This document shows, piece after piece, positions 1,812 to 18,127 of a stretch of 64,000 nt of DNA; position 1 is the stretch's first letter, and each line of letters opens with the position of its first letter. The notes beneath the pieces were generated by a model. That model ran no database searches and was not told the DNA's origin. It saw only the letters and a program-made list of their open reading frames with translations. The stretch comes from a virus, in IMG/VR virus record IMGVR_UViG_3300023174_000112, positions 1-64,000 of that record; one strand, written 5' to 3'. A program made the translations under genes and the position numbers.

Positions 1812-3599
1812 ATGGCAGAACCCAAACAACCCGGCTGGCGCAAGTATTTCAAAGTAGCAGACACTTCAGGTGTGATGAGCCCTATTTCAGGCAGGAACCA
1901 GTATGGTCTTCCTGGCTACACCAAAAACGATGGCTCAGACACAGGCATGCCAGCAGACTTTGTGTTTCGAAATTATGCGTCAAGACTGCCTGAAGTTTAC
2001 TCCGGACACCCCAATCGTATTGAACGCTATAATCAGTACGAAAACATGGACATGGATTCAGAGATTAATGCTTGTTTGGACATCATTGCTGAGTTCAGCA
2101 CACAGATGAACGAACAAAACGGCACGCCGTTCCTGGTTGATTATGCAGACAAGCCTACTGACAATGAAGTCAGCATCATCAAGAAACAACTGCAACAGTG
2201 GATCAAGCTCAACAAGTTAGACCAGCGTATTTTCAAACTTTTTCGCAATACCATCAAGTATGGTGATCAGGTGTTTGTGCGTGATCCAGAAACATTTGAA
2301 ATGATGTGGGTGGACATGAGCAAATTGGCCCGTGTGATTGTAAACGAATCAGAAGGCAAGCGTCCTGAGCAGTATGTGATCCGCGACATCAACCCCAACT
2401 TTCAAAACATGACTGTGGCAGCAAAAACCACCACAGACTACATGACCAACCCTGTGACAGGTTCAATCTCGGGCAATGCCAACTATACCATGCCCAATGG
2501 CGGCACTGGTGGCGGTGTGGGCAACAGCAGATTTATGACTGCCATGAACGAAGTTTGCTTGGATGCCAAGCACGTGGTACACATCAGCTTGAACGAAGGC
2601 TTAGACGTGTTTTGGCCATTTGGACGTAGCATACTAGAACAGATTTACAAAGTATTCAAGCAAAAAGAACTGCTGGAAGATGCTATTTTAATCTATCGTG
2701 TGAGCCGTGCTCCAGAACGCAGGATTTTCAAAATTGACGTGGGCAACATGCCCAGCCACTTGGCCATGGCCTTTGTGGAACGTGTGAAGAATGAAATGTA
2801 TCAGCGGCGAATTCCCACCATGACTGGCGGCGGCCAAAACATGATGGATGCGTCATACAATCCACTCAGCACCAACGAAGACTACTTCTTTCCCCAAGGT
2901 CAAGACGGACGTGGCTCATCAGTAGAAACACTTCCTGGCGGGCAGAACCTAGGCGAAATTGACGATTTGAAATACTTCAACAACAAAATGGCTCGTGGTT
3001 TGCGTGTACCGTCAAGCTATTTGCCCACTGGTCCTGACGATTCAGACCGTGCCATGAGCGACGGCAAAGTAGGCACAGCCTTGATCCAAGAGTACAGATT
3101 CAACCAGTATTGCGAGCGTTTGCAAGCATTGATTGTGCAAAAGTTAGACGACGAATTCAAGATGTTTATGAAATGGCGTGGGTTTAACATAGACTCTAGC
3201 CTGTTCTCTTTGAAGTTTAATGCACCTCAAAACTTTGCAAGCTATCGTCAAAGCGAGCTGGATACCACACGTATCACTGCATTTGCACAGTTAGAACCGC
3301 TGCCTTACTTGAGCAAACGCTTTTTGTTGCAACGATACTTGGGCTTGACCGAAGAAGAAATTGCAGAAAACGAAGAAATGTGGCGTGAAGAACGTGATGA
3401 GCCTGAACTGGAAACCAATGCAGGACAAGACATGCGTAGTATTGGTATCACGCCCGGTGGCTTGGAAGCAGACATCGAAACAGGCGAAGCAGTGGCTGGT
3501 ATGCAACCTGCTGGCGCCGGTACACCACCAGGCGGGCCTCCGGCTGCTGCACCTCCTGCACCTGCTGGTGGAGCCGCACCTGCACTCGGTGCAGTATAA
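1812..3599 (+). CDS. gp20: Portal protein (T4 gp20-like)
   Basis: LLEDAILIYRVSRAPERRIFKIDVGNMP and EDYFFP..GRGSSVETLPGGQNLGEIDD motifs; sits upstream of protease, scaffold and capsid genes. Confidence 0.95.
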   Translation: MAEPKQPGWRKYFKVADTSGVMSPISGRNQYGLPGYTKNDGSDTGMPADFVFRNYASRLPEVYSGHPNRIERYNQYENMDMDSEINACLDIIAEFSTQMNEQNGTPFLVDYADKPTDNEVSIIKKQLQQWIKLNKLDQRIFKLFRNTIKYGDQVFVRDPETFEMMWVDMSKLARVIVNESEGKRPEQYVIRDINPNFQNMTVAAKTTTDYMTNPVTGSISGNANYTMPNGGTGGGVGNSRFMTAMNEVCLDAKHVVHISLNEGLDVFWPFGRSILEQIYKVFKQKELLEDAILIYRVSRAPERRIFKIDVGNMPSHLAMAFVERVKNEMYQRRIPTMTGGGQNMMDASYNPLSTNEDYFFPQGQDGRGSSVETLPGGQNLGEIDDLKYFNNKMARGLRVPSSYLPTGPDDSDRAMSDGKVGTALIQEYRFNQYCERLQALIVQKLDDEFKMFMKWRGFNIDSSLFSLKFNAPQNFASYRQSELDTTRITAFAQLEPLPYLSKRFLLQRYLGLTEEEIAENEEMWREERDEPELETNAGQDMRSIGITPGGLEADIETGEAVAGMQPAGAGTPPGGPPAAAPPAPAGGAAPALGAV

Positions 3600-3607
3600 A
3601 TACACTC

Positions 3608-3826
3608 ATGCTGTTAAACGAATTTTTTCACAAAAGTCCTGATGCCTATCAGGATGTGTCGCAAGACAATAGTCAGGTGCAACTCAGCGACTTGCGTAAA
3701 ACTCGTCTCACACTGCGTCAGTTAAACAAACTGCGCAAAATGAATGATGTGAGAACTTATGAGTTCAAGGAAAAACTCAAACTAGTTCGCAAACAATACG
3801 CACCACCTCCTGCCCCACCAGTTTAA
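3608..3826 (+). CDS. Small basic protein, putative prohead core component
   Basis: 72-aa ORF between portal and core genes; TAAATA lies 5 nt upstream of the ATG; N-terminus MLLNEF. Confidence 0.65.
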   Translation: MLLNEFFHKSPDAYQDVSQDNSQVQLSDLRKTRLTLRQLNKLRKMNDVRTYEFKEKLKLVRKQYAPPPAPPV

Positions 3827-3935
3827 CGCTACTGTAATAAAACTAGACATTTATACCTAGTTTTCACCTCTTAAACCTGGTGTTTTTCTCCTACATCGTA
3901 AATAACAGCACACTTTACCTATAGGAGTTTCCCAT

Positions 3936-4763
3936 ATGAACCGTTTTGAACAATTGATTGAATATGTAATCAATGACGAAGAGGCGAAAGCCCGCGAACT
4001 TTTCCACGACATCGTTGTGGAAAAAAGCCGTCAGATCTATGAAAATATCATGGCTGAAGAAGCCCAAGAAGAGCTAGACGAAGCTGAAGACATCGAAGAA
4101 GCCGACATGGGTGGCGATGCCGCCGACAGCCTAATCGACGACGTGGAAATGGAAGAGGAATCTGACATGAACATGGAAAGCGAAGAAGACGAAGCTGACG
4201 TAGAATTTGACAACGACGCCGAAGAAGCTGGCGACGACTTAACACACGATTTGGAAGCCGGTCACGATGGTGAAGAAGCAGCTACCAAAGACGACATTAT
4301 GAATTTAGAAGACAAACTGGACCAGTTGATGGCTGAGTTTGAAGACCTCATGGGCGGTGACGACATGGGCGACGGCGACGGCTTTGGTCCTGACGAAGGC
4401 GGCGACGCTATTGAAATGGACGACACTGACGAAATGGAACCAGGCATGATGGAAGCTGTGAATTTAAAAGCAGCCCCAAAGCCAGTTACCAGTGAAGAAG
4501 GCGGCGTAAACAAGAAGTCTACCTATGCAGCCAACAGCGGACAAGCAGGCATGGCCAGCCGTCCAGTACACACTGGTGCCAGCGAAGGTGGACATCATGA
4601 CACATCTGCTTACAGCATGAACACCAAAGAATTGATTGGCAAAGTTGGCAACACACCTGCACAAGGCACACAAAAGCCTTCAGCAGCACCAAAGCCTAAA
4701 ATGGGCGACAACAGCGCAGGTCAAAACAACAAGAGCCCACTCCCTAGCGGACGTAAGGGTTAA
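3936..4763 (+). CDS. Highly acidic prohead core/scaffold-like protein
   Basis: Asp/Glu-rich; lies between portal and protease, like T4 gp67/68; SD GGAG upstream. Confidence 0.65.
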   Translation: MNRFEQLIEYVINDEEAKARELFHDIVVEKSRQIYENIMAEEAQEELDEAEDIEEADMGGDAADSLIDDVEMEEESDMNMESEEDEADVEFDNDAEEAGDDLTHDLEAGHDGEEAATKDDIMNLEDKLDQLMAEFEDLMGGDDMGDGDGFGPDEGGDAIEMDDTDEMEPGMMEAVNLKAAPKPVTSEEGGVNKKSTYAANSGQAGMASRPVHTGASEGGHHDTSAYSMNTKELIGKVGNTPAQGTQKPSAAPKPKMGDNSAGQNNKSPLPSGRKG

Positions 4764-4767
4764 TTAG

Positions 4768-5406
4768 ATGTCATCTAGATACCTAAGAGAAGATTTAACT
4801 TTTAGCCAGGCCAACATTCGAGTCTTAGAAGAGTCGGATGTGTCTGGCAAAAAGCATCTCTACCTTGAAGGCATTTGTATTGAAGGCGACAAGCGCAATG
4901 CAAATGAACGTATCTATCCGCGACACGAAATTATCAAGGCAGTTGAAACCATTAACGAACAGATACTGAAAGGTAACTCCGTTTTAGGTGAAGTGGACCA
5001 TCCAGATGATTTAAAAATCAATTTGGATCGAGTTTGCCACACAGTGGAAAAAATGTGGATGGACCAACATGCCGGTTGCGGCAAGTTGAAAATCCTGCCA
5101 ACTCCCATGGGAGAATTGATTAAAACGCTGATCACATCAGGTGTAAAACTTGGCGTCAGCAGTCGTGGCAGCGGTAACGTAGACGACAGAACAGGACATG
5201 TAAGTGACTTTGAAATTGTCACTATAGATGTGGTTGCACAACCCAGCGCACCCAATGCTTATCCAACAGCAATTTATGAAGGTCTCATGAACATGAAGCA
5301 CGGTCATAAGCTGATGGAGATGGCTCGGGAATCTGGTGAAGGCGACAAAGTACAGAGATACCTAAAGAATGAAGTTAAAAGACTCATTCGGGATCTCAAA
5401 ATCTAA
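4768..5406 (+). CDS. gp21: Prohead core protease (T4 gp21-like)
   Basis: NANERIYP, LGEVDHP, GVSSRGSG and DVVAQPSAPNA motifs. Confidence 0.95.
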   Translation: MSSRYLREDLTFSQANIRVLEESDVSGKKHLYLEGICIEGDKRNANERIYPRHEIIKAVETINEQILKGNSVLGEVDHPDDLKINLDRVCHTVEKMWMDQHAGCGKLKILPTPMGELIKTLITSGVKLGVSSRGSGNVDDRTGHVSDFEIVTIDVVAQPSAPNAYPTAIYEGLMNMKHGHKLMEMARESGEGDKVQRYLKNEVKRLIRDLKI

Positions 5407-5418
5407 GGAGAACCAGGC

Positions 5419-6507
5419 ATGTTTGATGCAATTAAACCCTTGCTTGATAGTGGCCTAATTAACGAAGACGTTAGTCAAGAACTCAACGAAGCTTGGGAAT
5501 CAAAACTAAACGAAGCCCGTGAACAGGTACGTGGAGAACTCAGAGAAGAGTTCGCACAACGCTACGAGCATGACAAGACAGTAATGGTAGAAGCCCTAGA
5601 CAAGATGGTAACAGAAGGTTTGGCCGCAGAAATTGCGCAAGTGGCTGCTGAGAAGCAAGCACTTGCGGAAGATCGCGTCAAGTTTCAAGGCAAGATGAAA
5701 GAATCAGCACAGAAGTTTAACGGCTTCTTGGTTAGCAAACTTGCAGAAGAAATTGGCGAATTGCGCAAAGACCGTAAAATGCACACTGAAGGAGTTGCAA
5801 AACTCGAAAACTTTGTGGTGCAAGCATTGGCACGTGAAATCACAGAATTCGCCAAAGACAAACGCGATGTCGTAGAGACAAAGGTGCGTCTGGTACGTGA
5901 AGCACGTGGCAAACTTGAATCGTTGAAGAGCCGTTTCGTAAAAGAATCAGCTGAGAAAATGAGTCAAGCTGTTAGCCGTCATCTCAAGGCTGAGTTGAAT
6001 CAGTTACAAGAAGACATCAAAGTTGCTCGTGAGAACAACTTTGGTCGCAGAATCTTTGAAGCGTATGCAGCAGAGTTCGGAGCCACTCATTTGAATGAGA
6101 AGGCAGAAGTCCGTAAACTGTATGATGTTATTGCTGAGAAGGATCAGAAATTGCGTAAAGCAATCGACATTACCCGTACTGCAAAGGCCGTGGTAGAGTC
6201 AAAAGAACGTGAACTGCGTATAATCAAAGAATCCAACGAGCGTGAAAGCACAATGGATGAATTGCTACGTCCCTTAAACAAGGAAAAGCAAGAAGTTATG
6301 CGTAATTTACTCGAAAGCGTTCAAACACCCCGTTTGAAAAATGCTTTTGAAAAGTATCTACCAGCAGTGTTGGAAGACAAATCTGTAAAAGCCCGTAAAG
6401 TAATTGCAGAATCTGTTACCTCAGTAACTGGTGATAAAACTACTGTTCCCAGTGTGTCGGAAGATCGCAGCAACGTGATTGACCTCAAGCGCCTGGCAGG
6501 TCTTTAA
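5419..6507 (+). CDS. gp22: Prohead scaffolding protein (T4 gp22-like)
   Basis: Coiled-coil, Glu/Lys/Ala-rich; lies between protease and capsid genes; SD AAGGAG. Confidence 0.85.
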   Translation: MFDAIKPLLDSGLINEDVSQELNEAWESKLNEAREQVRGELREEFAQRYEHDKTVMVEALDKMVTEGLAAEIAQVAAEKQALAEDRVKFQGKMKESAQKFNGFLVSKLAEEIGELRKDRKMHTEGVAKLENFVVQALAREITEFAKDKRDVVETKVRLVREARGKLESLKSRFVKESAEKMSQAVSRHLKAELNQLQEDIKVARENNFGRRIFEAYAAEFGATHLNEKAEVRKLYDVIAEKDQKLRKAIDITRTAKAVVESKERELRIIKESNERESTMDELLRPLNKEKQEVMRNLLESVQTPRLKNAFEKYLPAVLEDKSVKARKVIAESVTSVTGDKTTVPSVSEDRSNVIDLKRLAGL

Positions 6508-6526
6508 TCTTAACAAGGAGACTTAA

Positions 6527-7723
6527 ATGTCACAAGAACTATTAGAAAGTCGTTGGGGCGAAACCAAAGAGGCACTGTTAGAAGGTCTTAATGGAACCAA
6601 ACGCAATAGCATGAGCGTTATCCTAGAAAATACTCGTCGCTATTTGAAAGAGAATGCAAGTGCAGGTTCAACTGCATCTGGTAACATTGCCACACTTAAC
6701 CGTGTGATTCTGCCAGTGATTCGTCGTGTTATGCCTACCGTTATTGCTAACGAGTTGGTTGGCGTTCAGCCCATGACTGGTCCTGTTGGTCAAATCCACA
6801 CCCTGCGTGTGCGTTATGCCCAAAGTTTGACAGACACTTCTGCAGCCGCTACTAGCGTCGCAGCTGGTGAAGAAGCATTGAGCCCATTCAAAATTGCTCA
6901 AGCATATTCTACTGTGCCACAAGCTACAACAACTGCTACCAACTACACTGGTAACAACACAGCTACCATGGAAGGTACTGGCGGTAAGCAAATTTCCGTT
7001 CAAATCCTGAAACAAGCTGTTGAAGCTCGCACACGTAAGTTGCAAGCTCGCTGGACATTTGAATCTGCACAAGACGCACAAGCCATGCATGGCATTGACG
7101 TTGAAGCAGAAATTATGGCAGCATTGGCTCAAGAGATTACAGCTGAGATCGACCAAGAGATTCTCTTGTCATTGCGCTCACTGGCCTCTACTGAGTTCAC
7201 ATACAACCAAGCTACCGTTTCTGGTACAGCAACATTCGTTGGTGACGAACACGCCGCTTTGGCCGTGTTGGTTAACCGCGTTGCTAACTTGATTGCTCAA
7301 CGCACACGTCGTGGCGCTGGTAACTACGCTGTGGTTAGTTCAGCCGCCTTGACAGTGTTGCAATCTGCAACTACTTCTGCTTTTGCTCGCACTACAGAAG
7401 GTACATTTGAAGCACCTACCAACACCAAGTTTGTTGGTACATTGAACGGTTCTATGCGTGTTTTCGTTGACAGCTATGCCAGCGATACACAATCAGTACT
7501 GGTTGGTTACAAAGGTTCTTCAGAAGCAGACGCACCAGCATTCTACTGCCCATACATCCCATTGATGTCTTCAGGCGTTGTGTTGGATCCAAGCACATTC
7601 GAACCAGTCGTGTCATTCATGACACGTTATGGTTACATCGAACTGACAAACACTGCATCTAGCTTCGGCAATGCTGGTGACTATGTTGGTGAGATCGCTG
7701 TGTCTAACCTTTCATTCTCCTAA
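6527..7723 (+). CDS. gp23: Major capsid protein (T4 gp23-like)
   Basis: VGVQPMTGPVGQI, RKLQARWTFESAQD, EITAEIDQE, FYCPYIPL and MTRYG motifs. Confidence 0.97.
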   Translation: MSQELLESRWGETKEALLEGLNGTKRNSMSVILENTRRYLKENASAGSTASGNIATLNRVILPVIRRVMPTVIANELVGVQPMTGPVGQIHTLRVRYAQSLTDTSAAATSVAAGEEALSPFKIAQAYSTVPQATTTATNYTGNNTATMEGTGGKQISVQILKQAVEARTRKLQARWTFESAQDAQAMHGIDVEAEIMAALAQEITAEIDQEILLSLRSLASTEFTYNQATVSGTATFVGDEHAALAVLVNRVANLIAQRTRRGAGNYAVVSSAALTVLQSATTSAFARTTEGTFEAPTNTKFVGTLNGSMRVFVDSYASDTQSVLVGYKGSSEADAPAFYCPYIPLMSSGVVLDPSTFEPVVSFMTRYGYIELTNTASSFGNAGDYVGEIAVSNLSFS

Positions 7724-7786: not shown

Positions 7787-8935
7787 CTATACTTTGAACC
7801 ACGTTAGATATTGCTCTATCTTCTTGGTCACACTGGTCCAGTCATCCTGTGCAGGCTGTCGGAATATTCTCATGCTGCTGTACCAAGGACTGCTATCGCG
7901 ATTCAACATCCAACGCCAGCATGGTGCAAACCAATTCAACATCAACCAAGTGGGTCTGCCCAGAGCCGCACTCAAATGTGCAATGCTTGTGTCCACACTC
8001 AACACCACGTCCATGTGTGCAATCAATGCCGCAGTGTCAGCAAAATTTCTGATAGTGCCAGGATAGCGTGTGACTCCCAGTGCAGCCAATACAGAATCTT
8101 CTTCAGCGCTGGCATCTACTTGTAAATTAACCCATTCGTACGTGGGATTGTTTTTTATCAACTCCATCATCTTATCAAACGGCATGCCCTTGTGTGTGTT
8201 GAGCCAGTTGTCTTTGCGACCACTCCAACAAAATCCCACTCGCATGCGTTTTTTTGGACCTAGGCGTTCTTGCCATTGTTGAAACAAGTCTTGATGTGCA
8301 TTCAAGTAGCTGACCTGCTTGGGCAAGTTTTCCGTGGTTACACCCAATATACCAGGCAAGCTCATGATGGGAATCCAGTAATCAAACTCAGGAGGGGTAT
8401 CAACATATCTGCCCACCCAATCGACCACGTTGCTGCCTGACAGCATGGGAATCAATCCATCTGTGACCTGAAACAATACTCGTGCTCCGGCGGCGTGCAA
8501 GTTGAACAAGAATCGCATGAATTGAATGTTGTCTCCATGCCCTTGTTCACCTATGACCAAAATAGTTTTGTCTCGGAGATCTTGCCCGGCCCAACGAGGC
8601 TGAGCAAATTGTGGTTGGGTGCCTGCTAGGTGTTCGTAATTCCAACGACATTCGTAGGCAGGCCAACCACGAGCATAGTCGCCCTGAATCAGATAACTCA
8701 CAGCCAGGTTGAATTGTGCTGTGGGATTGTCAGGTTGCAACACCAAGGCATGTTGTAGAAATGGTATGGCTCGTTGTGGCTGACCAATTTCACGCAACAC
8801 ATTGCCGTAGTTGTTGAACGCCGACGCTGAGTCAGGATCGTCAACAAATGCCTGTGCATAACATTTAAGAGCTGCCACTGGTTGTCGGTCAGCTCTGAGT
8901 TGATTGCCTTGTTCAATTAGTTCAGATGAATTCAT
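7787..8935 (-). CDS. TPR-repeat protein fused to a GT-B (GT9-like) glycosyltransferase domain
   Basis: N-terminal TPRs (AFNNYGNVL, AQFNLAVSYL), then EQGHGDNIQF and MDVVLSVDTSIAHLSAALGRPTW motifs. Confidence 0.85.
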   Translation of the reverse strand: MNSSELIEQGNQLRADRQPVAALKCYAQAFVDDPDSASAFNNYGNVLREIGQPQRAIPFLQHALVLQPDNPTAQFNLAVSYLIQGDYARGWPAYECRWNYEHLAGTQPQFAQPRWAGQDLRDKTILVIGEQGHGDNIQFMRFLFNLHAAGARVLFQVTDGLIPMLSGSNVVDWVGRYVDTPPEFDYWIPIMSLPGILGVTTENLPKQVSYLNAHQDLFQQWQERLGPKKRMRVGFCWSGRKDNWLNTHKGMPFDKMMELIKNNPTYEWVNLQVDASAEEDSVLAALGVTRYPGTIRNFADTAALIAHMDVVLSVDTSIAHLSAALGRPTWLMLNWFAPCWRWMLNRDSSPWYSSMRIFRQPAQDDWTSVTKKIEQYLTWFKV

Positions 8936-8983
8936 GAGATATTTACAGTATATACAGGGTGGTTAATTATTTTAACAGGTCCA

Positions 8984-8989
8984 TAAATA
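8984..8989 (+). promoter_or_regulatory. T4-late-type promoter motif TAAATA, divergent from a second copy at 8940-8945 on the minus strand
   Basis: Matches the core of the T4 late promoter TATAAATA; the same motif recurs upstream of about 20 late genes in the window. Confidence 0.7.
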
Positions 8990-8990
8990 A

Positions 8991-9060
8991 AAGTCAACGC
9001 AATTCTGCGTTTTATGCGGCGTTAACCCACCGCGTAGCGACTAGAACTCGCATCGGGCTT
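8991..9060 (+). ncRNA. Candidate structured cis-regulatory leader RNA (four-way junction)
   Basis: Closing stem AAGTC/GGCTT encloses three hairpins (AACGCA/TGCGTT, TATGCGG/CCGCGTA, GCGA/TCGC); lies between a late promoter and the SD at 9065-9070. Confidence 0.55.
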
Positions 9061-9078
9061 CTTTAAGGAGAAATACAA

Positions 9079-9918
9079 ATGGGAAGAGCTCTCAAAATTC
9101 AAAAAAACAACGTTGGTTCAGGAACCACCGTCACTGGATCACCCCCAGTTACCTCATACAATCAAACCATTCTCACAGATGCTGCTTACCCACCGTTTTC
9201 AGCATTGACCAATCCGGTGTACAATTCACCAGTTCAGACACTTGACAGTGCTCAGTTTTTGGGAGTGGTTGGTGGATCACCAGCTACTAGCACACCTACT
9301 GCTACCTATCCTGAAATTTCTGCATTGGTCAACATTACCTTGGCCGACGGTTCAGACAGCTACACCGCCACAAGTTCATACACAGGTCGTATCATACGCC
9401 AAAAAGGTTCACACAAGTTCCTGGTTGCAGCCACTGGCGCAACCATTGCTGACGAAGATATGATCGTGGGACAAGCCTATCAAATTGCTGTGCTTGGAAC
9501 AACCAATTGGCAAGCCTGTGGTGCACCAGCTGGTGCCGCGTTGGGCGATGTGTTTACTTGCACAGCAGATGCTGGTGCAGGCACAGGCGAAGTTTATGCA
9601 GTTGGACAATGTGTGTTGTCAAACACTGCTACTCCAGCAACTGGCTACATGAGTATTCTATATTCAGTGGGCGACAGCGCCGCTGTGTATGCCAGCTACA
9701 TCACCAACAAGTGGGTGCGTGACTGGAACGGTATGACATATCAAAACTATTCTCCTACCAACTACGGTGTCAACATTCAAAGCAGCGAAAACTTCTATGT
9801 TACCAACTTCTTCACAGACGAAGGCACAGTTACATGGTCTGGTGCAGAAGTTATCAACAGTGCTTACGCACAAAATGGTACACTGCAATTGGCTCAGATC
9901 GCCAGCGTTACTTCTTAA
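9079..9918 (+). CDS. Putative virion structural protein of unknown function
   Basis: Strong SD, late promoter and own terminator; Thr/Ser/Gly/Ala-rich; IIRQKGSHKFLV motif. Confidence 0.6.
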   Translation: MGRALKIQKNNVGSGTTVTGSPPVTSYNQTILTDAAYPPFSALTNPVYNSPVQTLDSAQFLGVVGGSPATSTPTATYPEISALVNITLADGSDSYTATSSYTGRIIRQKGSHKFLVAATGATIADEDMIVGQAYQIAVLGTTNWQACGAPAGAALGDVFTCTADAGAGTGEVYAVGQCVLSNTATPATGYMSILYSVGDSAAVYASYITNKWVRDWNGMTYQNYSPTNYGVNIQSSENFYVTNFFTDEGTVTWSGAEVINSAYAQNGTLQLAQIASVTS

Positions 9919-9935
9919 TTTGTTGAGTAACCCAG

Positions 9936-9966
9936 TCCTCCCAGCTACATACTGGGAGGATTTTTT
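9936..9966 (+). terminator. Intrinsic terminator that sequesters the SD of the next gene
   Basis: TCCTCCCAG-ctacata-CTGGGAGGA followed by T6, directly before the ATG at 9967. Confidence 0.8.
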
Positions 9967-10554
9967 ATGAGCGCATCATTTGTACTGGGCAACGGCGTCA
10001 GCAGACTGGCCGTGGATTTAAACCAACTAAAACAACGTGGAAAGATCTACGGGTGCAATGCCTTGTACAGAGAATTTGTGCCAGATGTGTTGATCAGCAC
10101 AGACAAAGCCATTGCTGGCGCCATACAAAATTCAGGCTATGCTCAAAGCAATCTCATGTACACTCGCAGACCCTTGCCAGGACTGGGGGCAAGAACTGTG
10201 CCCCAAAACTACTACGGCTATAGTTCAGGCCCTATTGCAGTGGCCATGGCAGCCCTGGAACGACCATTGGCTGTGTATCTCTTGGGGTTTGACATGGGGC
10301 CAAAGCCAGGCAACCGATTCAACAATGTTTACGCAGACACAGAATACTACAAAAAGAGTTCAGCGAATCCCACTTTCACTGGAAACTGGGTCAGGCAATT
10401 GGTCACAGTGACCAAAGATTTTCCCTTGATCAGTTTTCACCGTGTGACAGGCGATACCACAGCGTCAATTGCAGAGTTGGAAAATATTAAAAATCTGCAT
10501 CACATGCCCATGACAGACTTTGTTGACCGTATAAATAATCAAAAGGATCTTTAA
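9967..10554 (+). CDS. Rossmann-like protein resembling Maf/DUF115/GT42-type glycosyltransferase domains
   Basis: FVLGNGVSR, IYGCNALYR, PDVLISTD, SSGPIA and VYLLGFD motifs. Confidence 0.55.
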   Translation: MSASFVLGNGVSRLAVDLNQLKQRGKIYGCNALYREFVPDVLISTDKAIAGAIQNSGYAQSNLMYTRRPLPGLGARTVPQNYYGYSSGPIAVAMAALERPLAVYLLGFDMGPKPGNRFNNVYADTEYYKKSSANPTFTGNWVRQLVTVTKDFPLISFHRVTGDTTASIAELENIKNLHHMPMTDFVDRINNQKDL

Positions 10555-10828: not shown

Positions 10829-13800
10829 ATGGCACAGCAGATCATCAACACCGGTGCAAACGCAAACGACGGCACCGGTGAACCCTTACGTGAAGCATTT
10901 ACCGCAGTAAATGACAACTTCACGGAGATCTACACCGCCGGCCCAGTAGGCACAGATGTACGCATTGTTGGTAATACAATTACCACTCTGCAGATCAATC
11001 AGAATCTAACACTCAAGCCCAACGGCATCGGGTTAATTCAAGCCAATGCCACAGTAGTCCCCAGTGTAAATCTAGTATATGATTTGGGTTCTCCCACCAA
11101 GCAATGGGACAGCGTTTATGCTGGATACTTCATTGGTAATGGCGCATTACTAACAGGCGTTGTTGGTGGCAATGCAAGCAACAGTTTCTCAACCATCTCA
11201 GCCAATGGCATCAACATTGTAGCAAATTCTTCCACTGGTGTTCTTACATTAACTCCTGGCAACAACATTACCATTGTTGGTTCTGCTGGATCAAACACCG
11301 TAACGTTTGGAGTATCAGCTTCTCCTAGTTTTTCTGGCAATGTCTCTGGTGGTAATTTTTTAACTGGTGGCACAGTCAGTGCTGCTGGCAACATAACTGG
11401 TGCTAACTTACGCACCACTGGATCAATTTCCACTGCTGGCAATATCACAGCCAACAACATTGTGTTCAGTGGCAACTTGGTTGGCAACATATCTACCACT
11501 GGCAACATCATTGCTGGCAATGTGATATCCACGCAGGCCATAATTGCCGCGTCAGACATCACTTCGGCGGCCAACATCACAGGCAATTACATTTTTGGTA
11601 ATGGTGCATTTTTAACTGGCATTTCGGGCGGTGCTGGCAATTACAGCAATGCTAACGTTTCTGCATTCTTGCCCACATACACTGGCAATGTTTCTGGTGC
11701 TTATTTCATAGGCAATGGTAGTCAGTTAACTTCCGTCACTGGTGCCAATGTTGTGGGCATAGTGTCAAGAGCCAACATTGCCAATGTGGCATATTCAGTT
11801 GCTGGCGCCAACGTTACAGGCACGGTAGACAATGCCAACTATGCTGGCTTTGCCAATCTTGCGTATACTGCATACGGCAATGGCATCATTGGTTCTGTGG
11901 CCACAGCCAACATTGCCAATGTGGCATATTCAGTATCAGGTGCCAATGTGGTGGGCACTGTGGCCAATGCCACCTACGCTGTCACCGCCGGAACAGCTAC
12001 CACTGCCAACACTGCCAATACTGCTAATCGAGCCAATATTGCCAATGTGGCATATTCAGTTGCTGGAGCCAATGTCACAGGCAATGTGGCCAATGCCACC
12101 TATGCTGAATTTGCCAATTTGGCATACTATGCATATGGCAATGGCATTATTGGATCAGTCGGCAGTGCTAACACAGCCAACATTGCCAATGTGGCATACT
12201 CAGTATCAGGTGCCAATGTTGTGGGCACTGTGGCCAACGCCACTTATGCTGTGTCAGCAGGTTCAGCAGGTTCAGCCAACACCGCCGGCCAGGCCAATAT
12301 TGCCAACATTGCCAATGTGGCATATTCAGTTGCTGGAGCCAATGTCACAGGCAATGTGGCCAATGCCACCTATGCTGAATTTGCCAATCTTGCATACTAT
12401 GCATATGGCAATGGCATTATTGGTTCAGTCGGCAGTGCTAATACTGCCAACATTGCCAACATTGCTAATGTGGCATACTCAGTTTCAGGAGCCAATGTTG
12501 TAGGCACAGTTGCCAATGCCACCTATGCGGTCACAGCAGGATCAGCCAACACTGCCAACCGAGCCAACATTGCCAACGTGGCATACTCGGTTGCAGGGGC
12601 TAACGTCACAGGCAACGTGGCCAATGCCACCTACGCTGAATATGCCAATCTTGCATACTATGCCTGGGGCAATGGTATTGTTGGACAAATTAGTACAACC
12701 AGCAACATCATTGCTGGCAATATTTCAACCACAGGTAATGTTACCAGCACATATTTCTTAGGCAATGGATCACAACTCACCGGCGTTGTTGCCACTGATG
12801 TTGGAGTATTGCCCAGTCTCAGTGTCACTGGCAATGCACAAATTGGCAACGTAAGAACAGCAGGACAAGTTAGTGCTGCTGGAAACGTTACCACAGGAAA
12901 TTATTTTGTAGGTAATGGCGCATTTTTAACAGGCATTGTGGCCAGTGCAGGCAGTGAAATATTATATGCCTGTAGCAGTGTAAGAATTGGTGGCGCCAAC
13001 GCCAATGTCACAGTCAGTGTCAATGCGGTGAGCAATGTGGCGGTGTTTACCACTGGTGGCATGTCTACCACGGGAAATATTATTGCCAACGCCAATGTTC
13101 TTGCCAATGGGCAGATATCAGCAGTAGGCAACGTCACTGGTAATTATATTTTTGGTAATGGCGCATTACTAACTGGAGTCATTACCAGTGTAGCCAACAT
13201 CAACAATGGCACAAGTAATGTTACTGTGGTCAGTTCAGGTGGTAACATCACTGTTGGAGTCAACGGCTCTGGCAACATAGTAGTTTTTGCCAACACTGGA
13301 GCCTATGTTGATGGGGTGGTCAGCGCAAGTGGCAACATAACAGCCAATTACTTCATTGGTAACGGATCACAACTGACTGGGGTTACTGCCGCTGGGGTCA
13401 ATGCCGCAGCATTAACAGGTACTACGTTAAGCTCAAATGTTTTATATTCGAGCTTGACACAAGTTGGCAACTTATCCAATTTAAGTATTGTTGGTAACAC
13501 AGTTGGTGGTAATTTATTAACAGCCGGTATAGTAAGCGCCGCAGGTAATATCTCAGCCAATTACTTTATTGGTAACGGATCACAACTGACTGGCATTGAT
13601 GCTACCAGTATTCAAAACGGCAACAGCAATGTAAAAGTTTATGCCAATGGCAATGTGTCAACATCAATAAATGGCACATCAAACATTGTAGTAGTGTCTG
13701 ACGCAGGACAATATGTTACAGGGGCAGTTTCCGCGTCAGGTAATATCACTGGTGCTAACTTAGTTACAAGTGGCCTGGCATCTGTCACTGGCAATATTAT

Positions 13801-16800
13801 TGGTGGTAATGTAAGCATCACAGGCGGCATGTTGGCATTTGCCAATGCTAATATTTCACAAACTAACCCGCTAGATTTAGCAATCACTGGTGCCTATCAA
13901 ATTAGTGTAAAACCAGCTGGCGGAACATATCAATGGACGTTTGGTAACGATGGTGCTTTAACTGGGGCAACTGGAGTTGGTGTCACTGGGTATCTATCAG
14001 CAGGCGGCAATGTAACTGGTGGCAATTTGTTAACAGGTGGCCTAATCAGCGCCACTGGTAATATTATTGGTAGTAATATTAACACCAGTAACATTCGACC
14101 CGTCACCGGCGGCCTAACAATCAGCACAGGGACTGGCAATTTAACACTACAACCTGCTGGCAACATTGTGTTGGCCAACACCATTATCAACAGTGTAGCA
14201 TATCCGCAACAAGATCAAGATGCTGCCAGCAAGATATATGTTGACAACATGGTGTCAACTGGTTTGTCATATCACTCACCTGTGACAGCAGCCACCACCA
14301 CAACTTTGGCAATTACCACAGGCGGTACAATAACCTATACACAGCCCAATGGCATTGCCAACGGCATTGGGGCACTGCTGACCACCACTGGCAGCTTCAA
14401 TTTAATTGACACAGCCAACGTGCAAACAGTTGGCATACGCATCTTGGTTAAAAATGAAGGCAACGCAGTATACAATGGCGTGTATACCTGGGCAAATGCC
14501 ACTAACATTGTGCGTTCAACTGACACAGACCAATACGGACCAGACAGCACAGAAGCGTTGAGCCTCAACGACTATTTCTTTGTTCAAAGTGGTAACATCA
14601 ACAAAGGTGGCGCTTGGGTGGTCAGCGCACCCCCTGGCACAATCACTTTTGGCTCAAGCAATATTGAATTCAGTCAGTTCAGTAGTTCACAAACATACAC
14701 TGCCAACACCTCAGCTGGTATAAGTCTGGCAGGCACTCAAATCAATGCCAAAGTTGATGAGAATACCACATCATTTGACGGTGGTGGCAATATCATTGTC
14801 AAAGCTGGTGCAAATCTCACAACACCCAACATTGGTGCAGCCACTGGTACAAGTTTGAGTTTGACTGGCAATGCAACCGCTGGTAATCTAAATGCTGTTG
14901 GCCTGAGTTTGAGTGGCAATGTAGTATCAACACTCAATGTCACTGGTAACATTGCTGGCGGTAACATCACAACACCTGGACTGATCTCTGCCACGGGCAA
15001 TATATCTGGTAATTATTTCCTTGGTAATGGTAGTCAACTCACTGGTGTTATTGCAGCCGGAGGCCAAGGCAATACCATTACATTGGGCACACCCACAGAC
15101 GGTAATCTCACAGGTAATGACGTTGCTTATCAAGGTTGGACCACTAGTACTTTTGTCACTGATGGCCTTGACGACTTGAACCAAGTGGCGCTGAACATTG
15201 CCGGCAATACTTTTGTGGGCAACACCTACATCACTGCCAACGTGAGTTCAGGACCCAGCCCATTGAGCGTGGCGTTAACAGGTCGTTATATTGGCAACCC
15301 CAATGCGTACTTGTGGCAGTTCGGTGATGGTACCGCCAATGTGACCACAGCCAATGCTGTACATACATTTAGCAATGTGTCAGGCGGCACATTCACAGTG
15401 TCTTACACTGCGTACAACACCAATGGCACACACGCAGGCAATGCTGCCAATGGAGCCAAAGGGTCAACCAGCACAGCCACCACAACAATAACACTGTACA
15501 CTCCCACCCCAATACCGTCGTTTACAGCCAACAGAACCAGTTTGGATACTCCTGGCGATGTGCTCATAACCAACACCAGTCAGTACGCAGAGACATACTC
15601 AATCAACTGGGGTGATGGCACCATTGTTATTCCAGCCAACAACTGGACCACAGCCAGCCACACTTTCACCAATTCTTCAGCCAACACTGATACATTGTAT
15701 GGCGTTAATTTAACTGGCAACAGCGCCAATGCAGGTGCTTCTCCAGTGAGTGTGACATCGGCCAATACCAATGTCAAAGTGTATTCTTCTCAAGCCAGCA
15801 ATGTATTCTTCACAGCCAACGTGGCCAATGTGATCAACGGCGTTGGTACAATAAGTTTTAGAAACGATTCTAACGGTGCACCTGGTAACACAGCAAGTTT
15901 TGGCGCACAACAGTTGTACAGTTGGAATTATGGCGATGGCAACATCAGCAATGTCAACATCCAATCAGGTCTTGCTGGAAATCCTGGTGCAGCCAATGTC
16001 ACACACACATTTGCGCTGAGCGCTGCCAACCAGTCTGGCAACAAGTACGAACAATACACAGCAAATTTGTGGTTGTACACTGGTTACAGTACCAGTCCAT
16101 TCAAGAGTGGCAATGTTACCATTACCATTGAACCGCAGACACGTGCCAACTACATTGGAACCACTGCCAATGTGATCACAGATGCCACAGCCAACACAGG
16201 CAATGCCAGAGTGGGTTACTTGTACACAGACTACAATGGAGCCAACCGTTCAACATTTACATTCCAGAATACCAGCGAAAACAGCAACATCGCCAACTGG
16301 ACCTGGGGCGATGGCACATTCAGCAATGGTGTATCAAATGTGGGCAACGTTTTAAAGACCTATACCAGTACCGGTGCCAAAACAGTGACTTTGCAGGCCA
16401 ATGGTACTCCCAATGGCATTACCAACACTGCTCAAAGCAATTCTTACAGTGTGACTGGTTATATTTTTATTGCCAACAACCCCACAGCACCCACTGATCT
16501 CAGCGGATTTGCCAATTTGGCCATAGCCAACGCCAGTCAATTTACCAATGCACCGTTGTTGGCAGCCGGAGCGGCAGATGCCACAGGCGGAAATATTCCA
16601 GCCAACGGTGCATCGGTCACACGTTTTGCAACCACAACACCAATCATGACCTATGCCAACGTGGTCAACGCCAATACATCAACCACAGGCACATTGGCTG
16701 CCTATGTGAACAACGCCAACGCTGGCGGTGTGGCTCTCAGCGTGGCAGGCAACGCAGTCACAGCCAGTCCATACGGAGCATTGGTTGTGTCAGCTGACAG

Positions 16801-18127
16801 AGACTTGCACGTGGCCAATGCCGCAGTGCCCAGTTATTTCTACAAAGTGTTCAGCGCCAACATAAGTTGTGCCTTGGCCAGTTTGAGCACAGGCTACAAC
16901 AACTACAAACTGGTACATTCAACATCGGGCAACACCAACTATGTGGGATTTGTCAAAGACAACTTGAATTCAGCACCAACCTTGGTTACCAGCAATGTGG
17001 TCATGGTTGAAGCCACAGCTGGCACCTACAGATATATTTCAGGTATTCCTTACTACAACACAGGATCGCCAACCATTACCATTGCCAACGTAGAAGTGCA
17101 GAATTTGGCAGGGCAAACATACACCAGCACCACTCCATTCACCCTGGCCAGCGGCACAGTGCTTGAAGGTTCAGGTGCTGTGCTTTCAGCCAATCAGACC
17201 AAGACACTGGCACAGATTGACAATGCAGCCAACAGTATGTTGACCGGCAGCAACGTCAAAGCCAACATTGGCATTGGTACAAATTATACTCTAGGCAACT
17301 TGACTGCCACCCTGGGCGGCTCAAACAACAGCGTGAGCACATTGCAGGCCAACATATTGAATGTGATTGGTACCAGCACCACAGTGCAGTTGCCGGCCAA
17401 TGTGCAAATGTATGCAGGTGCCAACTCTGGCATAAACGAGCAGGCCATTGTTGCATCAACTGCAGGAAATACGCAAGTGGGTGTGCGCATTGTGATGAGC
17501 ACCGCAGGCAATACTCCGGTGTTTGATGGATCAATCAACTACTACACTGCCAATGCCTGGTCAGGAGCGCAAACCATTGCTGGAACTCCAGAAGCAGTCA
17601 CCCGTTACGGCAACGTCAAACACTTTGTCACAAACTTGGCCACCGGCTACTTGCCCGTGGGACCAAATTTAAACACTGGTAGATCAGGCACACAATACTT
17701 TACTTTTGCATTTAGAAGACCAAGCCTGGCCAACTTTGACATAATCTTGACCACAAGCACTGGCATTGCCGGCCTCTGGGTGGCATTGCCAGGCACCACA
17801 ATTGACACTGGTGGGTTCACATCTCCCACACCTGGGTATCCTGGTCCTACCAGTACCATCAATGGTTGGCTGGAAGGATTCACACAGAATCAAAATGCTG
17901 GAGTACCAGGTGCCAGTGCCACTGGTGGCAACCCCAGTGGTACCAATGGATGTGCGGTAACCGGCGCTGACGTAATTCCGTTAAATACAGCAATTAGCAA
18001 TCAGAGATATACCATGACCTTTGGTACAATGAATGCGTCATACAGCACCGGTAACAATATGTTGATTAGAATTGCACTGAGCAGTGGTCAAACACTGTCT
18101 GACTTACAGATAGGGCCAGCAACATAA
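10829..18127 (+). CDS. Giant baseplate/fibre protein (2432 aa): T4 gp9/gp10-like N-terminus, GN-rich repeats, PKD-like domains
   Basis: N-terminal INTGANANDGTGEPLREAF..VNDNFTEIY; YFxGNGxxLTG repeats; W-x-(F/W/Y)-GDG PKD-like motifs at about 15300-16320. Confidence 0.75.
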   Translation: MAQQIINTGANANDGTGEPLREAFTAVNDNFTEIYTAGPVGTDVRIVGNTITTLQINQNLTLKPNGIGLIQANATVVPSVNLVYDLGSPTKQWDSVYAGYFIGNGALLTGVVGGNASNSFSTISANGINIVANSSTGVLTLTPGNNITIVGSAGSNTVTFGVSASPSFSGNVSGGNFLTGGTVSAAGNITGANLRTTGSISTAGNITANNIVFSGNLVGNISTTGNIIAGNVISTQAIIAASDITSAANITGNYIFGNGAFLTGISGGAGNYSNANVSAFLPTYTGNVSGAYFIGNGSQLTSVTGANVVGIVSRANIANVAYSVAGANVTGTVDNANYAGFANLAYTAYGNGIIGSVATANIANVAYSVSGANVVGTVANATYAVTAGTATTANTANTANRANIANVAYSVAGANVTGNVANATYAEFANLAYYAYGNGIIGSVGSANTANIANVAYSVSGANVVGTVANATYAVSAGSAGSANTAGQANIANIANVAYSVAGANVTGNVANATYAEFANLAYYAYGNGIIGSVGSANTANIANIANVAYSVSGANVVGTVANATYAVTAGSANTANRANIANVAYSVAGANVTGNVANATYAEYANLAYYAWGNGIVGQISTTSNIIAGNISTTGNVTSTYFLGNGSQLTGVVATDVGVLPSLSVTGNAQIGNVRTAGQVSAAGNVTTGNYFVGNGAFLTGIVASAGSEILYACSSVRIGGANANVTVSVNAVSNVAVFTTGGMSTTGNIIANANVLANGQISAVGNVTGNYIFGNGALLTGVITSVANINNGTSNVTVVSSGGNITVGVNGSGNIVVFANTGAYVDGVVSASGNITANYFIGNGSQLTGVTAAGVNAAALTGTTLSSNVLYSSLTQVGNLSNLSIVGNTVGGNLLTAGIVSAAGNISANYFIGNGSQLTGIDATSIQNGNSNVKVYANGNVSTSINGTSNIVVVSDAGQYVTGAVSASGNITGANLVTSGLASVTGNIIGGNVSITGGMLAFANANISQTNPLDLAITGAYQISVKPAGGTYQWTFGNDGALTGATGVGVTGYLSAGGNVTGGNLLTGGLISATGNIIGSNINTSNIRPVTGGLTISTGTGNLTLQPAGNIVLANTIINSVAYPQQDQDAASKIYVDNMVSTGLSYHSPVTAATTTTLAITTGGTITYTQPNGIANGIGALLTTTGSFNLIDTANVQTVGIRILVKNEGNAVYNGVYTWANATNIVRSTDTDQYGPDSTEALSLNDYFFVQSGNINKGGAWVVSAPPGTITFGSSNIEFSQFSSSQTYTANTSAGISLAGTQINAKVDENTTSFDGGGNIIVKAGANLTTPNIGAATGTSLSLTGNATAGNLNAVGLSLSGNVVSTLNVTGNIAGGNITTPGLISATGNISGNYFLGNGSQLTGVIAAGGQGNTITLGTPTDGNLTGNDVAYQGWTTSTFVTDGLDDLNQVALNIAGNTFVGNTYITANVSSGPSPLSVALTGRYIGNPNAYLWQFGDGTANVTTANAVHTFSNVSGGTFTVSYTAYNTNGTHAGNAANGAKGSTSTATTTITLYTPTPIPSFTANRTSLDTPGDVLITNTSQYAETYSINWGDGTIVIPANNWTTASHTFTNSSANTDTLYGVNLTGNSANAGASPVSVTSANTNVKVYSSQASNVFFTANVANVINGVGTISFRNDSNGAPGNTASFGAQQLYSWNYGDGNISNVNIQSGLAGNPGAANVTHTFALSAANQSGNKYEQYTANLWLYTGYSTSPFKSGNVTITIEPQTRANYIGTTANVITDATANTGNARVGYLYTDYNGANRSTFTFQNTSENSNIANWTWGDGTFSNGVSNVGNVLKTYTSTGAKTVTLQANGTPNGITNTAQSNSYSVTGYIFIANNPTAPTDLSGFANLAIANASQFTNAPLLAAGAADATGGNIPANGASVTRFATTTPIMTYANVVNANTSTTGTLAAYVNNANAGGVALSVAGNAVTASPYGALVVSADRDLHVANAAVPSYFYKVFSANISCALASLSTGYNNYKLVHSTSGNTNYVGFVKDNLNSAPTLVTSNVVMVEATAGTYRYISGIPYYNTGSPTITIANVEVQNLAGQTYTSTTPFTLASGTVLEGSGAVLSANQTKTLAQIDNAANSMLTGSNVKANIGIGTNYTLGNLTATLGGSNNSVSTLQANILNVIGTSTTVQLPANVQMYAGANSGINEQAIVASTAGNTQVGVRIVMSTAGNTPVFDGSINYYTANAWSGAQTIAGTPEAVTRYGNVKHFVTNLATGYLPVGPNLNTGRSGTQYFTFAFRRPSLANFDIILTTSTGIAGLWVALPGTTIDTGGFTSPTPGYPGPTSTINGWLEGFTQNQNAGVPGASATGGNPSGTNGCAVTGADVIPLNTAISNQRYTMTFGTMNASYSTGNNMLIRIALSSGQTLSDLQIGPAT
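11770..12680 (+). repeat. Intragenic tandem repeats (ANIANVAYSVxGANVxGxVANATYA units)
   Basis: Alternating near-identical units visible in both DNA and protein; the differences inspected are mostly synonymous. Confidence 0.9.

What the first reader, a model, noticed from the sequence alone, without database searches (positions are those of the whole stretch)
8991..9070. Cloverleaf-like four-way-junction RNA in a late 5' leader
Seen: the leader between TAAATA (8984-8989) and the SD (9065-9070) is unusually long and GC-rich for this window. It folds by eye into a closing stem (8991-8995/9056-9060) and three hairpins (8996-9011; 9013-9036; 9037-9051 with loop CTAGAAC). It lacks tRNA T-loop and CCA features. 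Inference: a cis-regulatory RNA, such as a translational operator for the downstream 279-aa protein, or a processed small RNA involved in assembly. I cannot assign it to a known family from memory.
Basis: partly seen in the sequence, partly recalled or inferred. Interest (0 to 1): 0.7.

Follow-up and report, generated by a model that had tools for sequence, protein, structure and literature searches.

The report
Known freshwater-2 phage leader RNA
The folded stretch is real, but it is a full-length copy of an RNA motif already catalogued in Rfam with unknown function (freshwater-2); it forms the 5' leader of a one-gene late message beside the capsid gene of an uncultured giant T4-like phage, only its three inner hairpins are conserved, and one loop appears to pair with the start codon.

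Summary
Window 8995-9081 (+) matches Rfam RF02980, freshwater-2, over the whole model (64.4 bits; gathering score 49.9). It is the only family above threshold in the window. This scan has reported the same motif several times on other DNA.

They are supported by compensatory changes in 42 homologous leaders and in 100 more distant ones.

The closing stem (8991-8995/9056-9060) exists in this sequence but is not conserved. It is 62.6% paired with no compensatory change, its 3' strand is absent from 54 of 136 distinct leaders, and its 5' strand lies at about -4 to +1 of the presumed late promoter. A conserved four-way junction is therefore not supported.

The window is a fragment of a jumbo T4-like phage. 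The motif occurs once per genome, behind a TAAATA late-promoter box. It always precedes a gene whose product begins MGRP/MGRA, of unknown function and with a Tudor/SH3-like core.

A lead from earlier scan notes held up. The P2 loop CCCA (9026-9029) can pair with UGGG at the start codon (9080-9083). Leaders starting AUGGC carry GCC in that loop in 9 of 27 cases, against 0 of 133 AUGGG leaders.

Likely role: cis control of translation initiation. The mechanism is inferred.

The parts
8982..8989 (+). T4-type late-promoter-like box CATAAATA (NATAAATA type)
   Evidence: Sequence. A TAAATA box lies within 60 nt upstream in 131 of 136 distinct leaders, most often 23 nt before P2, as here. NATAAATA is the late promoter described for T4-like cyanophages (PMC2984593). 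Function as a promoter is inferred.
8995..9081 (+). Full-length match to Rfam RF02980, freshwater-2 (model positions 1-84 of 84)
   Evidence: 64.4 bits against a gathering score of 49.9. E = 5.2e-09 for a 2-kb scan and 1.7e-07 for the whole window. It is the only family above threshold in the window.
8996..9011 (+). Hairpin P1 (8996-9001 pairs with 9006-9011)
   Evidence: Minimum-free-energy fold. 97.6% paired, with 3 of 5 pairs showing compensatory changes in A1. Four to five pair types per position in 100 diverse leaders.
9013..9036 (+). Hairpin P2 (9013-9019 pairs with 9030-9036; loop 9020-9029). The stem sequence UAUGCNG/CNGCGUA is nearly invariant and includes a U-G wobble.
   Evidence: 100% paired. 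The one variable pair covaries (A-U 24, G-C 17, U-A 1) in leaders selected only through the downstream protein. The Rfam consensus is upper-case here.
9037..9051 (+). Hairpin P3 (9037-9040 pairs with 9048-9051; loop CUAGAAC at 9041-9047). It abuts P2 with no spacer.
   Evidence: 100% paired, with 3 of 4 pairs compensatory. 98.7% paired in the wide set. The loop sequence is conserved.
9026..9029 (+). CCCA at the 3' end of the P2 loop: proposed 5' strand of a pseudoknot with the start codon
   Evidence: GCC occurs in this loop in 9 of 27 distinct leaders that start AUGGC and in 0 of 133 that start AUGGG (Fisher p = 3e-8). These fall in at least 6 protein lineages whose nearest AUGGG relatives carry CCC.
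9080..9083 (+). UGGG (the UG of AUG plus GG of codon 2): proposed 3' strand of the pseudoknot
   Evidence: Same test. The pairing in this window is read from the sequence.
9052..9064 (+). Linker AUCGGGCUUCUUU. CUUCU (9058-9062) can pair with AGGAG (9066-9070).
   Evidence: RNAalifold on A1 predicts this helix in place of the closing stem. All five pairs are invariant, so there is no covariation. The GGRCU linker is absent from 54 of 136 distinct leaders, so the helix is clade-specific.
8991..8995 (+).
   Evidence: forms in this sequence; not conserved. It lies at about -4 to +1 of the presumed late promoter, given that the T4 late box sits about one helical turn upstream of the start (PMC2988020).
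9065..9070 (+). Shine-Dalgarno AAGGAG
   Evidence: Invariant in A1 and part of the Rfam model.
9079..9918 (+). ORF of 279 aa (P0001) beginning MGRALK; member of the MGRP-start family that always follows the motif
   Evidence: 2178 metagenomic homologues. No Pfam or PHROG family. AF2 model with pLDDT 83.6, all-beta, and no clear PDB match. The shared core of the small relatives is Tudor/SH3-like at weak Z (at most 5.4).
9934..9968 (+). Intrinsic-terminator-like hairpin plus T run after the stop codon
   Evidence: 11-pair stem followed by TTTTT. Together with the promoter box this suggests a one-gene late transcription unit (inferred).

Best explanation
This is a canonical copy of the Rfam motif freshwater-2 (RF02980). 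It forms the 5' leader of a one-gene late mRNA in an uncultured jumbo T4-like phage. Transcription probably starts about 6 nt after the CATAAATA box, near 8995, so the RNA begins with hairpin P1. P1, P2 and P3 follow one another with spacers of 0-2 nt. The 3' end of the P2 loop (CCCA) pairs with the U and G of the AUG and the GG of codon 2. This forms a pseudoknot that holds the start codon while the strong SD stays in the intervening single strand. I infer that this fold acts in cis on translation initiation of the MGRP-start gene. It may do so through a trans-acting factor that reads the nearly invariant P2 stem and P3 loop. It may also stabilise the message.

Shown: family membership, the three helices, the loop-to-start covariation, the single copy per genome, and the strict linkage to one gene family in late structural modules.

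Inferred: the start site, the direction of the effect on translation, and any protein partner.
For: - Rfam hit over the full model, above the gathering score.
- All 60 IMG/VR loci found through the protein carry the motif upstream.
- All 120 loci found through an RNA pattern have an SD followed by an ORF starting MG/MA (mostly MGRP), 116-460 aa long.
- Helix covariation.
- The U-G wobble kept in all 100 distinct sequences, and other G-U pairs, fit an RNA read from the + strand only.
- One copy in each of five relatives of 175-525 kb, four of them at least 91% complete.
- Pseudoknot covariation: GCC loop with AUGGC start in 9 of 27 against 0 of 133, in at least 6 lineages.
- Gene order protease, scaffold, gp23 capsid, then motif plus gene, then giant ORFs, both here and in a distant relative.
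- Late-box spacing and the late-promoter literature (PMC2984593, PMC2988020).
- Terminator after the ORF.
- RNA-library contigs from two studies run from the leader into the coding sequence.
Against: - No experiment exists; Rfam lists the function as unknown.
- The pseudoknot is only 4 bp here. 18 of 27 AUGGC leaders are not compensated, and a few loops lack CC altogether.
- Gly2/Ala2 may also be constrained at the protein level.
- The invariance of P2 in the wide set is partly forced by my search pattern, though it also holds in the protein-selected set.
- In some clades P1 lies 15-30 nt from the late box, so it is not always at the 5' end.
- The RNA libraries may contain DNA, and contigs cannot map a start.
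Confidence: 0.6

Rival explanations
1. Passive stabiliser and enhancer. The stacked 5' hairpins only protect the late message from 5'-end-dependent decay and keep the SD exposed for very high expression. There is no switch and no trans factor.
For: P1 begins at about the predicted +1 in this window and in the commonest spacing class. The SD is strong and invariant. The gene is a late gene of the structural module, presumably needed in many copies. T4 gene 32 mRNA is a precedent for an unusually stable, structured leader (PMC3014915).
Against: Protection needs structure, not sequence. Yet the P2 stem bases, the U-G wobble and the P3 loop are nearly invariant, while the protein has diverged to about 25% identity. 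The loop-to-start covariation also implies a specific interaction with the initiation site. In several clades P1 is not at the 5' end.
Confidence: 0.2
2. One reading: a cloverleaf-like four-way junction closed by 8991-8995/9056-9060 is the functional fold and serves as the operator.
For: The stem is part of the minimum-free-energy fold of this sequence. AAGUC/GRCUU complementarity recurs in a few relatives such as L001, L049, L126 and L053.
Against: The stem is 62.6% paired with no compensatory pair, and its outer pairs are unpaired in 30-35 of 42 sequences. It is absent from the RNAalifold consensus and from the Rfam model. Its 3' strand is missing in 54 of 136 distinct leaders, and only 12 of 79 class II leaders reach 5 contiguous pairs.
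Confidence: 0.05
3. A riboswitch: the three-hairpin core binds a small molecule and the pseudoknot is its expression platform.
For: The core is compact and highly conserved, lies next to the ribosome-binding site, and contacts the start codon by a pseudoknot. Rfam types it Cis-reg without a known ligand.
Against: There is no resemblance to any riboswitch family in Rfam at E up to 10. The element always controls one gene, of unknown function and probably structural, rather than a metabolic or transport gene. The conserved bases lie mostly in a regular stem and a hairpin loop rather than in junctions.
Confidence: 0.06
4. A separate small RNA cut from the leader, for example with a role in assembly.
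For: None direct. The size (about 57 nt) and the compact fold would allow it.
Against: The spacing to the SD and AUG is fixed and tight in all copies. The covariation links the element to the start codon of the same message. RNA-library contigs bridge the leader and the coding sequence. The element occurs once per genome and only with this gene.
Confidence: 0.03

Closest known systems
freshwater-2 RNA motif, Rfam RF02980 (type Cis-reg). From memory, it was found in the 224-motif comparative screen of Weinberg et al. 2017 (PMC5737381), in aquatic metagenomes, with no classified organism and no function assigned.
   Same: It matches the full model above threshold. It has the same three hairpins, the same conserved P2 stem and P3 loop, and the same SD and AUG at the 3' end.
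   Different: Nothing structural differs. This analysis adds context that, as far as I can check, the database entry lacks: a jumbo T4-like phage origin, a late-promoter box, one copy per genome, the MGRP-start gene family, and a probable pseudoknot between the P2 loop and the start codon. The main text of the paper does not mention the motif and its supplements are not held, so I could not verify what its authors wrote.
E. coli rpsO (ribosomal protein S15) translational operator
   Same: Both are leaders in which a hairpin loop pairs with sequence at the initiation site to form a pseudoknot (rpsO is described in PMC3014915). A conserved G-U/U-G pair in a helix is part of what S15 recognises (from my own knowledge), and P2 keeps a U-G in all copies.
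   Different: There is no sequence or Rfam relationship. No binding protein is known here. This is a resemblance in mode of action, not membership.
Phage T4 gene 32 and gene 43 autogenous translational operators
   Same: Both are T4-type phage leaders containing a pseudoknot (gene 32) or a hairpin with a conserved loop (gene 43) that the gene's own product binds to shut off translation (PMC3014915).
   Different: Those are early or middle replication genes whose products are known nucleic-acid binders. The gene 32 pseudoknot lies 67 nt upstream and acts through cooperative binding over an A/U-rich tract. Here the gene is a late gene of the structural module, the pseudoknot involves the start codon itself, and the product has not been shown to bind RNA.
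T4 gene e / soc type start-site-dependent leader structures
   Same: [quoted passage not shown]
   Different: In T4 the excluded stem hides the ribosome-binding site in longer early transcripts. Here the excluded 'closing stem' is not conserved and no upstream same-strand gene feeds transcripts into it.

Membership tests
Rfam RF02980 freshwater-2 | Covariance-model score at or above the curated gathering score, over the whole model | tested here: met
   64.4 bits against 49.9, model positions 1-84 of 84, no truncation.
Rfam RF02980 freshwater-2 | Three consecutive hairpins supported by covariation | tested here: met
   97.6-100% paired with 7 compensatory pairs in 42 leaders. 98.6% paired with 9 compensatory pairs in 100 leaders.
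Rfam RF02980 freshwater-2 | Conserved primary sequence UUAUGCNG...CNGCGUAG and hairpin loop YUAGAAC | tested here: met
   Window sequence 9012-9047 and the alignment to the model consensus.
Rfam RF02980 freshwater-2 | Lies directly upstream of the SD and start codon of a protein-coding gene (Cis-reg type) | tested here: met
   SD at 9065-9070, AUG at 9079, ORF of 279 aa.
Rfam RF02980 freshwater-2 | Aquatic or freshwater metagenomic origin | tested here: inconclusive
   The window's source is not disclosed. Contigs 80-99% alike occur in two lake-water and one river RNA library. Relatives are IMG/VR metagenome contigs.
tRNA or tRNA-like cloverleaf | Acceptor-type closing helix, T-loop, anticodon arm | tested here: not met
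   ARAGORN finds no tRNA or tmRNA in the window. No tRNA-clan hit at E up to 10. The closing helix is not conserved.
   62.6% paired, no compensatory change. Not in the RNAalifold consensus. The 3' strand is absent from 54 of 136 distinct leaders.
S15/rpsO-type pseudoknot operator (works-like comparison only) | Pseudoknot between a leader hairpin loop and the initiation region | tested here: met
   Loop GCC with start GGC against loop CCC with start GGG: 9 of 27 against 0 of 133, in at least 6 lineages.
S15/rpsO-type pseudoknot operator (works-like comparison only) | The gene's own product binds and stabilises the pseudoknot | not testable with these tools
   No protein-RNA prediction or assay is available. 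The product only shows a weak Tudor/SH3/KOW-like barrel (Z at most 5.4) and a basic N-terminus.
Known riboswitch classes | Match to a described aptamer family | tested here: inconclusive
   No riboswitch family appears at E up to 10 in 8000-10000. This does not exclude an undescribed ligand.

The most novel reading that the evidence does not exclude
Autogenous 'assembly-coupled' control. The conserved basic N-terminus (G/A-R-P-L-K...) and the Tudor/SH3/KOW-like barrel shared by all MGRP-start proteins would bind the invariant P2 stem and P3 loop of their own leader and lock the start-codon pseudoknot. Free, unassembled protein would then shut off its own translation. That would be an S15- or gp32-like operator for a late virion protein, conserved across marine and freshwater jumbo T4-like phages.
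Probability: 0.12. Interest if true: 0.6.

Novelty: already known. Interest (0 to 1): 0.3.

Why it matters
As an object it is catalogued (RF02980), and this scan has met it repeatedly, so the finding itself is not new.

The modest value lies in the context for an orphan motif:
- It is the leader of a single late gene, once per genome, in uncultured jumbo T4-like phages.
- The RNA is more conserved than the protein it precedes.
- There is comparative evidence that one loop holds the start codon.

If an experiment confirmed a trans-acting partner, it would be a rare case of structured-RNA translational control of a late phage gene. It would also give a function to a very abundant aquatic phage protein family (2178 homologues).

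Tried and rejected
1. Literature. A full-text search for 'freshwater-2' returned only unrelated papers. The main text of Weinberg 2017 has no occurrence and no supplements are held. What the discoverers wrote therefore rests on my memory.

2. Cultured relatives. tblastn of the protein and blastn of the leader against 50,697 GenBank phage records gave no match.

3. Protein function. There was no informative result from Pfam, PHROGs, Foldseek against PDB, a PDB sequence profile, or the ESM Atlas. BFVD matched only uncharacterised proteins of uncultured phages. VIA-align gave only weak SH3/Tudor-type rows, with Z at most 3.8 for the 279-aa model and at most 5.4 for a 149-aa relative.

4. Pseudoknot between the P3 loop UAGAA and UUCUA in the linker: rejected. 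Linker variants UACU and UCCU are not compensated in the invariant loop, and 54 of 136 leaders lack the linker.

5. Anti-SD helix CUUCU/AGGAG. RNAalifold predicts it, but all pairs are invariant and it exists only in leaders with the long linker. I kept it as a clade-specific possibility, not as a family feature.

6. A long-range helix 9055-9064/9083-9091 appears in the fold of 8995-9095. GGRC and GYYC pair in different registers in relatives, and small-protein clades lack it. I did not pursue it.

7. RNA libraries. All three runs hold only small shares and are contigs. No contig covers 8929-8975. Plus-strand contigs end at about 9004-9007 in two studies, and an adapter junction falls in the equivalent P1 3' half in the third. 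This is at most a weak hint of a start near P1. No DNA run was available for comparison, and the libraries may contain DNA.

8. The same pattern scanned in 185,579 prokaryote genomes gave 26 stretches, of which only 3 are real copies by the covariance model. This gives no firm host assignment.

Full report
**What is in the sequence.** The gap 8936-9078 lies between a minus-strand gene (7787-8935, a TPR plus GT9-like protein) and a plus-strand ORF of 279 aa (9079-9918). CATAAATA is at 8982-8989, AAGGAG at 9065-9070 and ATG at 9079.

The fold is not better than shuffled sequence (z = -1.9; z = -1.1 for 8985-9082).

The leader is long and relatively GC-rich. There are 89 nt from the box to the ATG, against 17-31 nt for eight other TAAATA-SD-ATG units in the window. 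GC is 0.51, against 0.46 for the window and 0.27 for the promoter-side half of the same gap. ARAGORN finds no tRNA.

**What it is.** A scan of Rfam 15 matches 8995-9081 (+) to RF02980, freshwater-2 (type Cis-reg), over all 84 model positions. The score is 64.4 bits against a gathering score of 49.9. It is the only family above threshold in the 64-kb window. It has no closing helix.

A look-up of earlier notes of this scan shows the same motif was reported on many other genomes, each time resolved as freshwater-2.

**Genomic setting.** The window belongs to an IMG/VR virus record of 90,132 bp that CheckV rates 26% complete. It encodes a T4-type portal (gp20), a prohead protease (gp21), a scaffold-like protein and the gp23 major capsid protein just upstream (1812-7723). 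ORFs of 2432 and 4422 aa lie downstream.

Near-complete relatives are 318-525 kb long, and each holds exactly one copy of the motif. An intrinsic-terminator-like hairpin follows the ORF at 9934-9962, so the unit looks like a one-gene late message.

NATAAATA is the late promoter described for T4-like cyanophages (PMC2984593). In T4 the 8-bp box sits about one helical turn upstream of the start (PMC2988020). That places +1 near 8995, the first base of the Rfam match and one base before P1. The start site is an inference.

**Comparative test of the fold.** All 60 IMG/VR loci recovered through the 279-aa protein (56-97% identity) carry the motif in the same place. I aligned 42 distinct leaders from the TAAATA box to the ATG, with these results:
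- P1 is 97.6% paired, and P2 and P3 are 100% paired. Seven pairs show compensatory changes.
- Sliding the 3' partners by 1-3 columns drops pairing to 29-51%.
- The closing stem is 62.6% paired with no compensatory change. Its two outer pairs are unpaired in 35 and 30 sequences.

RNAalifold, run independently, returns the three hairpins plus a small helix CUUCU(9058-9062)/AGGAG(9066-9070), not the closing stem.

A pattern scan for the P2/P3 core in IMG/VR gave at least 120 further loci. A covariance model built from the 42 leaders aligned 100 distinct copies. These are 98.6% paired, with four to five pair types at most positions of P1 and P3. P2's invariance in that wider set is partly imposed by my pattern, but it also holds in the protein-selected set.

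Of 136 distinct flank/linker combinations, 54 lack the GGRCU linker that supplies the 3' strand of the closing stem. Of the 79 leaders with that linker for which the 5' flank could be read, only 12 reach five contiguous pairs. The stem's 5' strand also lies at -4 to +1 of the presumed promoter. A four-way junction is therefore not a property of this RNA family. At most it is a local accident of this clade.

**Linkage to one gene family.** Every copy examined is followed by an SD and an ORF beginning M-G/A-R-P/A-[LIV]-[KN]. These ORFs are 116-460 aa long. They share a core with the motif [YF]I[IV]xQKGxxK[FY] and a C-terminal ...NxYTW...DDS...LTAI block, which the window's protein also contains (GRIIRQKGSHKFLV). 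Synonymous variation in codons 2-4 (GGA/GGU, CGU/CGC/AGA, CCU/CCA/CCG) shows that the N-terminus is conserved as protein.

In a distant relative with a 153-aa version, the gene order is again protease, scaffold, gp23, motif plus gene, then a giant ORF. In another relative the gene sits among sheath and fibre-like genes.

The protein's function is unknown. It has no Pfam or PHROG family. AF2 gives an all-beta model (pLDDT 83.6) with no convincing PDB match. The small relatives give only a weak Tudor/SH3/KOW-type barrel. 'Virion protein' is an inference from position and late control.

**A loop that reaches the start codon.** Earlier scan notes proposed that a loop pairs with the start codon, and I tested this here. 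The 3' end of the P2 loop is almost always CC(C)A. In the window, CCCA (9026-9029) is complementary to UGGG (9080-9083), which is the UG of AUG plus the GG of codon 2.

Most copies cannot vary at these positions, so I fetched leaders whose second codon begins GC (start AUGGC) with a pattern that placed no condition on the loop. The results were as follows:
- GCC occurs in the P2 loop of 9 of 27 distinct AUGGC leaders and of 0 of 133 AUGGG leaders (Fisher p = 3e-8).
- The nine fall into at least six protein lineages.
- Their nearest AUGGG relatives carry CCC. One of these lineages is the window's own 279-aa family, at 79-88% identity.

This is a genuine two-sided change, though the sequences are not phylogenetically independent and 18 AUGGC leaders are uncompensated. 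I regard the pseudoknot as probable, not proven.

**How it most likely works.** Several facts point to specific recognition at the initiation site rather than mere bulk structure:
- The RNA is more conserved than the protein behind it.
- The P2 stem bases, a U-G wobble kept in all 100 distinct copies, and the P3 loop CUAGAAC are nearly invariant.
- The wobble pairs make the fold strand-specific, so it is RNA and not a DNA element.
- The start codon is held by a loop while the SD stays unpaired.

The closest working analogies are the rpsO (S15) pseudoknot operator and the T4 gene 32 and gene 43 autogenous operators (PMC3014915). These are resemblances in mode of action only; there is no sequence or Rfam relationship.

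I give 0.6 to 'cis-acting leader that gates translation initiation through the start-codon pseudoknot, possibly with a trans factor'.

Contigs from two RNA libraries run from the leader into the coding sequence (9023-9385 and 9007-9233). This speaks against a separate small RNA, although those libraries may contain DNA.

**Verdict.** The three hairpins and the long, GC-rich leader are real, and the closing stem is not conserved. Novelty: already known. Interest is low to moderate (0.3). The residual value is the phage context and the start-codon pseudoknot, which make an orphan Rfam motif experimentally approachable.

Noticed in passing
window 7787-8945 (-) and 9967-10554 (+): The leader's gene is flanked by two sugar-transferase-like genes. 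One is a divergent TPR plus GT9 (heptosyltransferase-like) gene with its own TAAATA on the minus strand at 8945-8940. The other is a 195-aa ORF with a weak sialyltransferase-like PHROG hit. The Ser/Thr/Ala-rich 279-aa protein lies between them and could be a glycosylation substrate. Earlier scan notes discuss a possible virion glycosylation system in relatives.
   Followed up: partly
window 10829-18127 and 19487-32755 (+): Two giant ORFs of 2432 and 4422 aa lie downstream of the capsid module, each preceded by a TAAATA box (10799 and 19461). They are presumably fibre-like proteins.
   Followed up: no
L073:1426-1515 and L073:3142-3232: One IMG/VR relative carries two copies of the leader about 1.7 kb apart, suggesting a tandem pair of MGRP-start genes, each with its own leader.
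   Followed up: no
L199 and L236 (IMG/VR): An outlier copy with good P1-P3 has a P2 loop AACUAA without CC. Its ORF begins MATKK instead of MGRP. It is a variant in which the start-codon pairing would be absent.
   Followed up: no
L266, L274 (Haliscomenobacter sp. MAG EUL_031, contigs of 183 and 148 kb); L272 (Rickettsiales MAG MED657, 54 kb): These are the only true copies of the motif in 185,579 prokaryote genomes. They sit on long contigs of two MAGs and are probably phage contigs binned with the bacteria. They could be weak host hints.
   Followed up: partly
window 9055-9064 with 9083-9091: When the transcript is folded from 8995, the best fold adds a 9-bp helix (with one bulge) between the linker GGGCU.CUUU and codons 2-5. 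This encloses the SD and AUG in an 18-nt loop. It looks clade-specific.
   Followed up: partly
window 9079-9918; alignments A2 and A4: The MGRP-start proteins (116-460 aa) share a core of about 110 residues, and the 279-aa form looks like that core with insertions. The family has 2178 metagenomic homologues in the near-length search alone, and no named relative.
   Followed up: partly
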